A stretch of 64,000 nucleotides of DNA, from NCBI GenBank assembly GCA_024679065.1, contig JAGIQG010000020.1, positions 17,360,001-17,424,000 on the forward strand. Direction: 5' to 3'. Each line of letters opens with the position of its first letter. Within the stretch, counting starts at the first letter, position 1. The position numbers are program-made. Origin of the DNA: Sphyrna mokarran. Lineage: Eukaryota. Positions 12,001-15,000 of the stretch are shown here, piece by piece.

Positions 12001-15000
12001 AATGCCTTGCTCTGTCCCTTCTCATATTTGCAACTTCGGAGTGACTTCACGTGCAGAAAACCCATGTGCTGCGGTTGCCTCTGGTCCACTCTAAATGATA
12101 TACAGATGCCGGCGTTGGATTGGGGTGGTAAGAACTCAGTAAGAATTTAGCAACACCAATTTATAATCCAACCGATTTATTTGATAGTAAAAACGCGAGC
12201 TTTCAACACTCTGTGCATTTGCCTGAGGAAGACACAGAGTGTTGAAAGCTCGCGTTTTTACTATCAAATAAATCGGTTGGATTATAAATTGGTGTTGCTA
12301 AATTCTTACTGAGTTCTTACCACTCTAAATGACACAGACTTTTAGGAGAGGAGCTAGATCATAAGAATGGAACTTCTACCAATAGGATATAAATGAGAAA
12401 TGTTGTTACTGTAGATGCAACAGCAAACTTGTTCCTGTCCTTACACCATGTGCTGCAATAAAAATGGGGCTTTTCAGAGAGCACAACATGTTGCACACAT
12501 GATTGAAACTAGATATTTGTTATGTCTGCATCAAAACATATTTTAGATAACCATGAAACAACTTTATAATTTTGCATTTTGATGAACCACTTGTCAATTC
12601 TACTGTTAATTTGCTTATTTAAGTTGGTCATGTCAGAGTTTCATATGCTTTAATTAGTTATTGGATTGTCATTTGAATAAAGGTCAAAGACAAATTTAAT
12701 GATTTTAATATTGTACAATCTTATCTGAATTAACTTGATCATGAAAGATCGTAAAGTTTCAGATGGATAAATGTCTGGTCGTTGAAGATTTGAAATCTCT
12801 GGAGAGAAGAGAACAGTACTGTCAATGGAATTTCAGTCAGATGAAATGTTGGGCACACTTGAATGGCATAGCAGTAGAAAAGGAAAGTATCATACAATGA
12901 TTTGGATGAAGGGATTGAGTATAATGTTTTTTCCTCAATTGAAGTTAAGCACACACAAATCATTAATTAGATGATTACCTGAGCGCACATAAAATTTATT
13001 GACACAATTTGAGTGGAGTCAGGGGATGTCTATCTGTATATTTCAGTCTGAAATCTATACAAAGATTGGTTCTGGTTCCTGGTAATGCAGCCAAATTTAT
13101 AGATATTACAAAGGTAGGCAAATGATTATGAGGAAGGTGTGATCTGAAAAGGATATACTTAAGTTGAGTGAGCAAGTGAAGTATAATGTGAGAAACTGAG
13201 GTTGTTCAGTTTGGCAGGAAGAATAAACAAGCAGAGGGGGAGAGACTTAGACTGTTGCGGTATGGAGGAATCTTCTCGTACATGAATCACAGACATGGCA
13301 TACAAGGACAGCAAATAAGTAGGAATGTTGTCATTTATTGCAAGAGGGATAGAATATATAAGTGAGGATGACTTGTTACAACTGTCCATTGCATTGGTGA
13401 TATTGTACCTATAATATTGCATATTGTATTGATCTCCTTACTTAGGATATAATACATTAAAAGCAGTTCAGAAAAGGTTCAGTAGCCTGGTCTGAGATGA
13501 AGGTGTTGCTTTTGATGAAAGGTTGATTCTAAACTTACTGGAGTGTCTACGAATGAGAGGTGATCTTATTGAAACATGAAATTCTGGGGGACTTGATCGG
13601 TGAAGAAGTCAGTCAGTAAAGTGCAGAACTCTGCTACCTTATGTTACCTTAGCATTGTTACGCAGAACTTCCTTGAGGCTTCTCCCTGCTTGATGCTCTA
13701 CAACCGTAAAGCTGAGAAAAGAAATTGTTTTATTAAGAGTCTTCATCTCACTTCAGGCCTATTCACACCTAACAACTGGCCCTGAAAACTGCTCATTTTT
13801 ACCACTTGTGACAAATAGCAGCACAACAGTTGAGGTGGTTAGCAACATTCTAAATAAAACAACACAAATATTCTTAAAATTTAGCTTGCCTTTTCTCCAA
13901 ATGTTATCAGATCCTTAAAAAAAAAAACCAAGATCCAAATCTCCATCTTCACCAAAACAGGATGCATTTGGAAAGCTACAGAATGCACAGAGAGTCTTTG
14001 TTTGGAAGCTATAGATGTGCATTGGAAAGCGCAAACCAACCCCAATAACTGATCTATCTGACCTCCAAGCACATCCACCTCATAGGTGCAGAATCTGTAG
14101 ATTGTGCATTGGACTTATCAGCTATGTTATGGTTCATTTTACTGGGGTGAAAGCAAGTCATCCTTGACTCGGGGTCTGCCTAATATGATATTCAGTATAA
14201 CTGAGGTAAATATGAAATGGAGTTTGAAAAAATGCTCAGTATTCTGTTATATATGCTGGATCTTTTGTAAAACAAAGCATTTTTGAAAAGGTGCACGCAT
14301 TACTGCTTAGGTCCTCAAAACTTGCACGTTGCTCTCTGGTCTCTTCCGCAATTTTAGTTATATGTCCAGTCAGTGCTAATCAAGTGTTGCTGGCTTAAAA
14401 TTGATTTTGCATTCCCGAAGCAATCGGATTGTTGAATGCTGCCTAGGTACACCTTATTTTTCCTTTCTGTCGATCTCTTGCCCTGCTCCCTTTTTTATTC
14501 TTGTATAATCTTTCATCCCGCTACGTAAGGAAGGCACGTCAGTGAAGGCAAGATGGCAGCACTTGTAATTAGCTGTTGCCCACTTTGGTCAAAAGTGAAG
14601 ATTTTGTTGTGTCTAAATGGAATGATAAATTTATTTTATATATGAAACCTACTCTTATTTTATCCTGGCCAGTATCGGTGTTTAACTTGCTTCAATGTTT
14701 CAAAATTGAAGTGCACTGGAAATGAACAGAATTGATGCTCCTACAAAATTATTGCATGATATACATGTGGAACAGCTGCAAGCTATTTGGTATTAAATTA
14801 GTCATAACTTGTAGTAAAGCTGTACTTGACATGCATTCTCCTAATCCCCAGAAACTCTACAGATGTTGGGGCAAAGACTCAGGTTTTGGCTCAAATTTCC
14901 ACAATTTTCAAATTGCCCTGCTGATATTCAAGTTGTGATGTGGAGATGCCAGCATTGGATAGGGATAAACACAGTAAGAAGTCTCAACACCAGGTTAAGG

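What the first reader, a model, noticed from the sequence alone, without database searches (positions are those of the whole stretch)
12086..12332. Young Penelope-derived perfect 91-bp inverted repeat with 13-bp TSD inside the MED13L pre-mRNA
Seen: 12125-12215 and 12233-12323 are mismatch-free reverse complements around a 17-nt spacer. CCACTCTAAATGA is duplicated on both sides, and the right copy overlaps the arm by 4 nt (microhomology). Known: Penelope-like elements produce inverted pLTR structures on insertion. Inference: a recent, non-coding ~220-bp fold-back insertion that forms a long perfect hairpin when the intron is transcribed, a possible substrate for Drosha/Dicer or ADAR, a cruciform, or seed of a MITE-like or miRNA-like family.
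Basis: partly seen in the sequence, partly recalled or inferred. Interest (0 to 1): 0.72.

Follow-up and report, generated by a model that had tools for sequence, protein, structure and literature searches.

The report
Head-to-head Penelope fragment in shark intron
A 221-base piece of a Penelope-like jumping gene landed as two mirror-image copies in the first intron of a shark Mediator-13-family gene. This is an ordinary by-product of how these elements insert, although it would fold into a very long perfect RNA hairpin.

Summary
Arms 12125-12215 and 12233-12323 are 91/91 complementary around a 17-nt spacer, flanked by a 13-nt target-site duplication. This is far beyond chance (RNA fold -167 kcal/mol, z = -29).

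It is a dead, non-coding insertion of the 3' end of a Penelope-like element (PLE). The spacer plus right arm is a sense copy. The left arm is an antisense copy that runs 26-30 nt further into the element's own 3' terminus.

A longer relative at 61222-61695 follows an endonuclease ORF end. Its shark homologues carry RT and GIY-YIG.

An inverted 5'-truncated copy with a one-sided "tail" is the published hallmark of PLE insertions (PMC8557442). It fits in vitro cleavage and extension of both strands from two RT start sites (PMC11167929). A single-cDNA snap-back is rejected.

CpG o/e of 1.04 against 0.17-0.19 in the flanks supports youth.

The host-gene claim holds in part. A MED13/MED13L-type first exon lies at 815-883 on the + strand, so the repeat sits about 11.2 kb into the next intron.

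Dicer, ADAR, MITE and miRNA roles are untested. The window is elasmobranch, not human. Ordinary; low interest.

The parts
12086..12098 (.). Left copy of the 13-nt target-site duplication (CCACTCTAAATGA)
   Evidence: the only non-tandem direct repeat of 13 nt or more within 400 nt in the window
12099..12215 (-). Left copy: 117 nt of the PLE 3' end, antisense on the + strand. Its outer 26-30 nt (12099-12124/12128) are the 'tail' that the right copy lacks.
   Evidence: Alignment A1. The extension matches the end of the 15k copy in 18 of 21 aligned columns (0 of 1000 shuffles reach the score) but is complementary to the right flank at only 8 of 26 positions.
12216..12232 (+). 17-nt spacer; it is the 5' part of the right (sense) copy, not a separate sequence
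   Evidence: 14 of 16 aligned columns identical to the 61k copy in sense orientation, against 4 of 4 in the other orientation
12216..12323 (+). Right copy: 104-108 nt of the PLE 3' end in sense orientation, 5'-truncated. Its last 4 nt (CCAC) are shared with the TSD.
   Evidence: blastn to 61604-61698, 81% over 97 nt, E 7e-20; nhmmer
12217..12257 (+). Hammerhead-like motif in the right copy: helix I 5' strand, CTGAGGA box, bulged A, 5-bp helix II, GAAA, GC, TC, helix I 3' strand
   Evidence: Pattern match 12223-12251 (the pattern was written after seeing the sequence). Pair counts on 3 copies: 26 of 32 cells paired, 3 of 5 helix II pairs changed on both sides. No Rfam hammerhead match.
12320..12332 (.). 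Right copy of the 13-nt target-site duplication
61222..61695 (+). Older single 5'-truncated copy of a related PLE. It holds the last 56 codons of the endonuclease ORF plus the stop (61222-61391), a 3' UTR and a 3' end without tail. It is flanked by a 15-nt TSD (61207-61221 / 61696-61710). Gene state: one 5' truncation, with no stop or frameshift in the retained stretch.
   Evidence: tblastn of P0002: 1 HSP, 1 frame, 86% identity; CpG o/e 0.53
14937..15063 (-). Older short single copy of a more distant relative (hammerhead-like motif plus 3' end with tail), flanked by an 8-nt TSD CAAGTTGT (14929-14936 / 15064-15071; 10 of 11 over 11 nt)
   Evidence: CpG o/e 0.32
815..883 (+). First coding exon (23 codons, ATG to GT donor) of a MED13/MED13L-type gene, downstream of a CpG island (peak 99-248). 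This puts the repeat about 11.2 kb into the following intron.

Best explanation
The feature is a dead-on-arrival insertion of a Penelope-like retroelement (PLE), 221 bp long (12099-12319), made in one event.

Inferred mechanism: the element's endonuclease cut the two target strands 9-13 nt apart. Each free 3' end then primed reverse transcription of the element's RNA.
- The top strand (left side) started at the distal start site, so it includes a 26-30-nt 'tail'.
- The bottom strand (right side) started at the proximal start site, with 4 nt of CCAC microhomology.

Both cDNAs stopped about 110 nt in, at or just past a hammerhead-like motif, and were joined head to head. The result is two mirror-image 5'-truncated copies with their 3' ends pointing outward, which makes a 91-bp perfect inverted repeat.

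The insertion has no ORF and no shown function. Because it lies in the first intron of a MED13-family gene, the pre-mRNA would contain a perfect hairpin of about 95 bp.

Shown here: the structure, the homology, the asymmetry, the TSD, and signs of youth. Inferred: the order of nicking, priming, stopping and joining, and that the intron is transcribed.

The confidence of 0.75 is a blend: about 0.9 that this is a PLE-derived head-to-head double copy made in one insertion, and about 0.65 for priming from both strands as the way it arose.
For: Structure.

PLE origin:
- The arm and spacer match the 3' end of the 61k copy (81% over 97 nt).
- The 61k copy lies about 210 nt downstream of an ORF end that is 86-89% identical to shark proteins (13 hits among 39 candidates).
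- P0002 carries RVT_1 (E 5.2e-9).
- 3 of the 9 sequences in alignment A7 (8 shark or eukprot relatives plus the window ORF) give GIY-YIG hits, best E 2.5e-4.

Asymmetry and orientation.

In the window, 2 of 4 copy ends carry the tail, and TSDs are 13, 15 and 8 nt.

Literature:
- PLE insertions are 5'-truncated, often with an inverted 5'-truncated copy next to them, and a 30-40-bp tail often at only one end (PMC8557442, passages).
- An anole PLE protein cleaves and extends both strands in vitro. Reverse transcription starts at two adjacent internal sites whose interval is the tail, and a hammerhead lies upstream of them (PMC11167929, main text).
- Dual minimal hammerheads 100-700 bp apart on opposite strands were seen in Schistosoma (PMC4209133).

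Youth: CpG o/e 1.04 against 0.17-0.19 in the flanks, with 0 differences in 100 compared positions.
Against: - No full-length or tandem (pLTR) copy is in the window, and no other copy of the same subfamily, so the source sequence and the exact junction are unknown.
- There is no clear microhomology at the inner junction (12215/12216).
- The tail here is 26-30 nt, at or just under the published 30-40 bp.
- The third copy (61k) ends 12-16 nt short of the right copy, so start sites are not strictly two.
- Rfam finds no hammerhead.
- The predicted stem-loop at the start sites is not better than shuffles (z = -1.3).
- Arm identity could be kept by gene conversion.
- Reads across the palindrome were not seen.
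Confidence: 0.75

Rival explanations
1. Snap-back (fold-back) of a single cDNA: one strand primed, reverse transcription stopped, and the cDNA 3' end folded back and copied itself into a hairpin.
For: The arms are 91/91 identical with a short 17-nt loop. The spacer has the orientation expected if the bottom-strand cDNA was made first.
Against: A self-copy would run on into a reverse complement of the right flank. Only 8 of 26 positions of 12099-12124 fit that. The same stretch matches the family's own 3' terminus in the 15k copy (18 of 21 columns, 0 of 1000 shuffles, alignment A1).
Confidence: 0.05
2. L1-style twin priming on one RNA molecule, with the second primer annealing internally. The model is recalled from Ostertag and Kazazian 2001, which was not read here.
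For: The overall geometry is the same: an inverted 5' part, a sense 3' part and one TSD.
Against: Twin priming gives an inverted segment from upstream of the sense segment with little overlap. Here the two segments cover the same 91 nt, and the inverted one reaches further 3'. That needs two templates or re-use of one 3' end. Three papers hold both 'Penelope-like' and 'twin priming'; I saw only the listing.
Confidence: 0.1
3. A single PLE copy inserted and was later turned into a palindrome by inverted duplication during repair or replication, or the palindrome is an assembly artefact.
For: Palindromes are hard to assemble. PMC8557442 notes that complex PLE insertions cause assembly problems. 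Reads could not be examined.
Against: The TSD brackets the whole structure. The left copy holds element sequence that the right copy lacks, and the right copy holds the spacer that the left copy lacks, so neither is a copy of the other. Unmutated CpGs in both arms argue against two events spread over time.
Confidence: 0.07
4. A MITE or foldback DNA transposon with 91-bp terminal inverted repeats.
For: Terminal inverted repeats plus a TSD and a small size.
Against: The same sequence occurs as single, one-orientation copies, each with its own TSD (61k and 15k copies). TSD length varies (13, 15, 8 nt). One copy continues upstream into a PLE endonuclease ORF. The ends are asymmetric. No second palindromic copy is in the window.
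Confidence: 0.03
5. A selected hairpin RNA gene (miRNA- or endo-siRNA-like) or an RNA-editing target with a role in the host gene.
For: A perfect stem of about 95 bp. Sub-threshold matches to miRNA models, for example mir-553 at 39 bits against a gathering score of 82. Intronic position on the sense strand of a gene.
Against: All Rfam matches are below threshold and come from the long stem alone. The insertion is young, so there is no conservation to speak of. No expression data were available. A perfect 91-bp stem is unlike a canonical pre-miRNA (my own knowledge).
Confidence: 0.05

Closest known systems
Complex insertions of canonical endonuclease-bearing Penelope-like elements (inverted 5'-truncated copy plus one-sided tail), as described in PMC8557442 and the works it cites
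   Same: 5' truncation, an adjacent inverted copy forming an inverted repeat, an extension at only one end, a TSD, and a hammerhead-type motif near the 3' repeat region.
   Different: This is the minimal form. Both copies are cut down to about 105-117 nt, with no ORF and no pLTR or tandem part. The tail is 26-30 nt against the published 30-40 bp.
PAc (Poseidon of Anolis carolinensis) in vitro: both strands cleaved and extended, two internal RT start sites (PMC11167929)
   Same: Two outward-facing copies that start at different points 26-30 nt apart. The sense strand of the terminus is AC-rich. A hammerhead-like motif lies about 70-100 nt upstream of the starts.
   Different: A different host and family. 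4-nt microhomology is seen at one junction, whereas PAc needs no homology. A third start position occurs in the 61k copy. Nothing here was measured biochemically.
Minimal hammerhead ribozymes of metazoan PLEs (PMC4209133)
   Same: In the right copy, as read by eye: the catalytic boxes, a bulged base before helix II, a long helix II, palindromic GC at 15.2/16.2 and a short helix I.
   Different: G10.1 pairs with U rather than C. Helix I has only 3 pairs in this copy. The two older copies have changed core boxes. No Rfam hammerhead model matches. Cleavage is untested.
L1 5' inversions by twin priming (recalled, not read here)
   Same: Use of both nicked target strands as primers in one insertion event.
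   Different: L1 segments do not overlap; here the overlap is complete.
Non-LTR retrozymes, proposed to be non-autonomous PLE derivatives (bioRxiv 10.64898/2026.07.22.740005; abstract and passages)
   Same: A short non-coding unit with a hammerhead-type motif derived from the PLE repeat region, found as solitary monomers.
   Different: Retrozymes are defined by tandem arrays. Here the two units are inverted, not tandem.

Membership tests
Penelope-like element (canonical, C-terminal endonuclease) | ORF with reverse transcriptase | tested here: met
   Met only through relatives. P0002, 86% identical to the window ORF end, has RVT_1 at E 5.2e-9, 36.5 bits against a cut-off of 29.6. It is 1 of the 9 aligned sequences that holds the RT part. 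No RT remains in the window. PLE-specific RT motifs were not examined.
Penelope-like element (canonical, C-terminal endonuclease) | C-terminal GIY-YIG endonuclease | tested here: met
   GIY-YIG (PF01541) matched in 3 of the 9 aligned sequences, best E 2.5e-4. One earlier hit was below the cut-off (12.9 against 22.6 bits). The 78-aa window ORF itself gave no Pfam hit. PDB sequence searches returned nothing useful.
Penelope-like element (canonical, C-terminal endonuclease) | Partial tandem copies forming pseudo-LTRs | tested here: not met
   No direct repeat of the tail region lies next to any of the 4 copies. All copies are strongly 5'-truncated, so this feature cannot show.
Penelope-like element (canonical, C-terminal endonuclease) | Adjacent inverted 5'-truncated copy | tested here: met
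   12099-12215 (antisense) abuts 12216-12323 (sense) within one TSD.
Penelope-like element (canonical, C-terminal endonuclease) | Optional 30-40-bp tail, often at one end only | tested here: met
   A 26-30-nt extension at the left end only. 2 of 4 copy ends in the window carry it.
Penelope-like element (canonical, C-terminal endonuclease) | Hammerhead motif in the repeat region | tested here: inconclusive
   The motif was read at 12217-12257. The pattern gives 1 hit against 0.06 expected, but it was written post hoc. 26 of 32 cells pair, against 25-50% when slid, but 84 of 500 shuffles do as well with only 3 sequences. No Rfam hammerhead at E up to 10.
Hammerhead ribozyme (Rfam families) | Match to a curated covariance model | tested here: not met
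   0 matches at gathering score over the whole window. No hammerhead family among 20, 2 and 3 matches at E up to 10 around the three loci.
Hammerhead ribozyme (Rfam families) | Self-cleavage | not testable with these tools
   This needs an RNA cleavage assay. The published minimal PLE hammerheads cleave poorly as monomers (PMC4209133).
L1-type twin-priming inversion | Inverted segment comes from upstream of the sense segment, with little or no overlap | tested here: not met
   The two segments share 91 nt, and the inverted one extends further 3'. The definition is recalled.
MITE / foldback DNA transposon | Copies share both terminal inverted repeats and a fixed-length TSD | tested here: not met
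   The other 2 loci are single-orientation copies with TSDs of 15 and 8 nt. Only the window could be searched.
miRNA / hairpin RNA gene | Match to a known family, or small RNAs from the stem | tested here: not met
   The best match is mir-553 at 39 bits against a gathering score of 82. Expression is not testable here.
MED13L host gene | Exons of the gene flank the site on the same strand | tested here: inconclusive
   The upstream first exon 815-883 matches MED13L or MED13 N-termini (25 hits among 29 candidates, E 1e-7 to 0.06). No downstream exon is in the window: 801 ORFs of 38 aa or more gave no Med13 Pfam hit. The paralogue was not resolved.

The most novel reading that the evidence does not exclude
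The short module (hammerhead-like motif plus about 100 nt of 3' end) may be more than a random truncation product. It could be a discrete short RNA, or a retrozyme-like non-autonomous unit, with a fixed 5' end.

The right copy here and the unrelated 15k copy begin within 4 nt of each other in element coordinates, and the left copy stops 17 nt further in.

If so, a dimeric PLE particle would place two such units head to head in one event, each monomer using a different start site. This would create perfect long hairpins at birth, a ready source of intronic double-stranded RNA in shark genomes.
Probability: 0.15. Interest if true: 0.5.

Novelty: new member of a known kind. Interest (0 to 1): 0.2.

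Why it matters
In itself it matters little. It is one more truncated copy of an abundant retroelement class, arranged in the way the literature describes.

It has modest value as a clean natural footprint. One young insertion shows both target strands primed, the two alternative start sites side by side, and both cDNAs ending at the hammerhead-like motif. That agrees with the in vitro picture for a lizard PLE.

Practically, a 91-bp perfect palindrome in the first intron of an essential transcription-regulator gene has three consequences:
- It is a place where assemblies and read mappers can fail.
- Transcription would make a long double-stranded RNA there.
- It could serve as a presence/absence marker between populations or sister species.

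Tried and rejected
- Rfam over the whole window at gathering score and at E up to 10 around the three loci. No hammerhead; only sub-threshold stem look-alikes.
- Pfam on all 801 stop-to-stop ORFs of 38 aa or more on both strands. No Med13, RT or endonuclease domain; three chance-level hits (DENR_N, DUF1163, NAP, E 0.004-0.008).
- Pfam on the 23-aa exon alone: nothing.
- PDB sequence searches with P0002 and with alignment A7. No meaningful hit (best E about 0.5).
- Fold of the sense 3' end. The stem-loop at the start sites is not better than shuffles.
- Atlas search of the 61875-62165 ORF. Best score 0.79, which is no evidence.
- nhmmer and blastn for more copies in the window. Only the four known ends.
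- Literature for PLE plus twin priming, and for Penelope hairpin siRNA (listings only). Nothing specific.
- Considered and rejected: snap-back, L1-type twin priming, MITE, later inverted duplication, hairpin gene (see rival explanations).
- Not done: a genome-wide census of the arm, an empty allele, reads, small RNAs and editing.
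Full report
**Observation.**
- 12125-12215 and 12233-12323 are exact reverse complements (91 of 91). They are separated by 17 nt and extend to 96 nt at 98%.
- CCACTCTAAATGA stands at 12086-12098 and 12320-12332, and the right copy shares 4 nt with the arm.
- The 247-nt stretch folds into one hairpin at -167 kcal/mol as RNA (200 shuffles: -50.2 +/- 4.0, z = -29, none as good). As DNA it folds at -111 kcal/mol.
- No other inverted repeat of 30 nt or more within 3 kb in the window exceeds 81% complementarity (4 pairs found).
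- Among 5 direct repeats of 13 nt or more lying 13-400 nt apart, the other 4 are tandem repeats.
- The window has no N, 37.8% G+C and a CpG o/e of 0.27.

**Organism.** I do not take the window for human.
- The one retroelement ORF remnant in it (61156-61389) has its best relatives in sharks: Mustelus asterias 89%, Heptranchias perlo 86%, Scyliorhinus torazame and Chiloscyllium punctatum (13 hits at E up to 1e-3 among 39 candidates).
- The window holds a young Penelope-like insertion. That class is reported at very low copy number in mammals (PMC4350176, passages) and without minimal-hammerhead families there (PMC4209133).

**What the arms are.**
- Within the window the arm has two relatives: 61604-61698 (sense, 81% over 97 nt, E 7e-20) and 14936-15020 (antisense, 71% over 91 nt).
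- A profile search finds only these four ends. The next best hit has E 0.1.
- The 61k copy begins inside an ORF that ends at 61391. A tblastn of the shark protein P0002 finds this as the only coding remnant in the window (61222-61389, one HSP, one frame, 86% identical, residues 588-643 of 643).
- P0002 carries RVT_1 (E 5.2e-9).
- GIY-YIG is matched in 3 of the 9 sequences of alignment A7 (8 relatives plus the window ORF), best E 2.5e-4.
- A reverse transcriptase followed by a C-terminal GIY-YIG nuclease is the architecture of canonical Penelope-like elements (PMC8557442; PMC11167929).
- The 61k copy is one 5'-truncated sense copy, 61222-61695, between 15-nt TSDs. Its gene has one truncation, with no stop or frameshift in what remains.
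- The 15k copy (about 14937-15063, antisense) is a 127-nt fragment between 8-nt TSDs.

**Anatomy of the 12k insertion.** Alignment A1 and one search show that it is not symmetric.
- The spacer belongs to the right copy. In sense orientation it matches the 61k copy in 14 of 16 columns; in the other orientation only 4 of 4.
- So the right copy is 12216-12319/12323, in sense orientation.
- The left copy, 12099-12215, is antisense and runs 26-30 nt beyond the point where the right copy ends.
- That extension is element sequence. It matches the outer end of the 15k copy in 18 of 21 columns (0 of 1000 shuffles reach the score). It is complementary to the right flank at only 8 of 26 positions.
- The two copies therefore lie head to head, with 3' ends outward, inside one TSD.
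- In the window, 2 of 4 copy ends carry the extension.

**Fit to the literature.**
- PMC8557442 (passages) describes PLE insertions as highly 5'-truncated. They often have an inverted 5'-truncated copy immediately adjacent, which forms inverted repeats. A 30-40-bp 'tail' is often present at only one end.
- PMC11167929 (whole main text) shows that a purified anole PLE protein cleaves and extends both target strands, unlike R2 and L1. Reverse transcription starts at two adjacent internal sites, the interval between them is the tail, and a hammerhead lies upstream of the start sites. The protein is predicted to be a dimer.
- PMC4209133 (parts 1-2 of 4) reports dual minimal hammerheads 100-700 bp apart on opposite strands in Schistosoma.

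**Mechanism (inferred).** One event produced the insertion.
- The target was nicked on both strands 9-13 nt apart.
- The top-strand 3' end primed at the distal start (with the tail).
- The bottom-strand 3' end primed at the proximal start (with CCAC microhomology).
- Both cDNAs ended about 110 nt in and were joined. I see no clear microhomology at 12215/12216.

Alternatives:
- A snap-back of a single cDNA is contradicted by the left extension.
- L1-type twin priming (recalled) predicts non-overlapping segments, whereas these overlap completely.
- A later inverted duplication fails because each copy holds element sequence that the other lacks.
- A MITE fails because the same sequence occurs as single copies with their own TSDs of other lengths.

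**Hammerhead-like motif.**
- In the right copy I read, at 12217-12257: a helix I strand, CTGAGGA, a bulged A, a 5-bp helix II, GAAA, GC, TC and the return strand of helix I. These are the traits that PMC4209133 lists for minimal PLE hammerheads. The letters of the core boxes are from my own knowledge.
- A pattern written after seeing the sequence hits once in the window, against 0.06 expected (6 of 100 shuffles have a hit).
- On the three copies, 26 of 32 cells pair, against 25-50% when partners are slid. 3 of 5 helix II pairs change on both sides. With three sequences, 84 of 500 shuffles do as well.
- Three helix I columns of the 15k row are flank rather than element.
- The two older copies have altered core boxes.
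- Rfam gives no hammerhead at any threshold tried.
- I call this feature inconclusive.
- The left copy stops inside helix II. The right copy and the 15k copy begin within 4 nt of each other just upstream of the motif.
- That clustering of 5' ends is unexplained and is the basis of the bolder reading.

**Age.**
- The insertion keeps 8 CpGs in 221 nt (o/e 1.04). The flanks have o/e 0.17-0.19, the 61k copy 0.53 and the 15k copy 0.32.
- Zero differences in about 100 compared positions (arms plus TSD) bound pairwise divergence below 3% at 95%.
- 'Young' is supported, although in slowly evolving genomes that can still mean millions of years.
- Arm identity alone could be kept by gene conversion.

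**Host gene.**
- A CpG island peaks at 99-248 (74% G+C, 22 CpG).
- An ATG at 815 opens 23 codons that end at a GT donor after 883.
- Pfam finds nothing in 23 aa.
- The protein search needs at least 40 aa. I therefore sent the contiguous 40 codons 815-934 as they stand.
- That search returned 25 hits among 29 candidates. The named ones are 'mediator of RNA polymerase II transcription subunit 13-like' (Passer, Lontra, Acipenser, Chanodichthys) or 'subunit 13' (cyprinids, salmonids) with Med13 Pfam domains, at E 3e-5 to 2e-3. Better-scoring unnamed hits were not used.
- No further Med13 exon is detectable among 801 ORFs of 38 aa or more.
- G exceeds C in all eight 8-kb bins, and T exceeds A in seven. 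This is the asymmetry expected on the sense strand of a transcribed unit (my knowledge).
- The repeat therefore lies about 11.2 kb into what is most likely intron 1 of a MED13-family gene, on its sense strand. MED13L against MED13 is not resolved.
- Only one exon was found and it was searched on its own.

**Function.**
- The insertion has no ORF with any family match and no curated RNA family.
- Its hairpin would form in the pre-mRNA whichever strand is read.
- Processing by Dicer or Drosha, editing by ADAR, cruciform extrusion, and seeding of a repeat family are all possible in principle. None could be tested, and none is suggested by conservation, because the insertion is young.

**Verdict.** This is a real, young and ordinary feature: a minimal head-to-head double copy of a Penelope-like element's 3' end, of a kind already described for this class. 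It has some value as a clean natural footprint of two-strand priming.

**Unchecked.** Genome-wide copies, the empty allele, read support, and small RNAs and editing. The supplements of the three PMC papers were not opened, and those of the preprint are closed.

Noticed in passing
window 1-883: Promoter-like start of the host gene: (AG)12 at 60-84, a CpG island peaking at 99-248, a short out-of-frame upstream ATG at 804, and the first coding exon at 815-883 with a GT donor.
   Followed up: partly
window 61207-61710: An older 5'-truncated PLE copy (61222-61695) with a perfect 15-nt TSD ACTAACTTGAAAATA. It keeps only the last 56 codons of the endonuclease and ends 12-16 nt short of the right 12k copy, a third 3'-end position.
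   Followed up: yes
window 14929-15071: A short antisense copy of a more distant relative, with the tail and an 8-nt TSD. Its 5' end falls within 4 nt of the 5' end of the right 12k copy in element coordinates, hinting at a preferred 5' terminus.
   Followed up: partly
window 61875-62165 (+): A 97-aa open frame beside the 61k PLE copy. It looks to me, from recall only, like the C-terminal end of a CR1-type LINE ORF2. Pfam gave nothing and the Atlas best score was 0.79, so it is unverified.
   Followed up: partly
whole window: Strong strand asymmetry. GC skew is +0.01 to +0.21 in all eight 8-kb bins, weakest at 40-56 kb and strongest at 56-64 kb. T exceeds A in seven of eight bins.
   Followed up: no
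proteins P0004, P0008, P0011, P0013: Several NCBI shark gene models (XRCC5 isoform X2, PPP1R12A-like X3, FAM210B X1, FAM204A X2) match this PLE endonuclease end at 51-84% identity. They are probably TE-derived terminal exons or annotation artefacts.
   Followed up: no
window 28861-28914 and 54079-54122: Two short tandem repeats (23-nt unit x 2.3, 18-nt unit x 2.4) of no evident significance.
   Followed up: no
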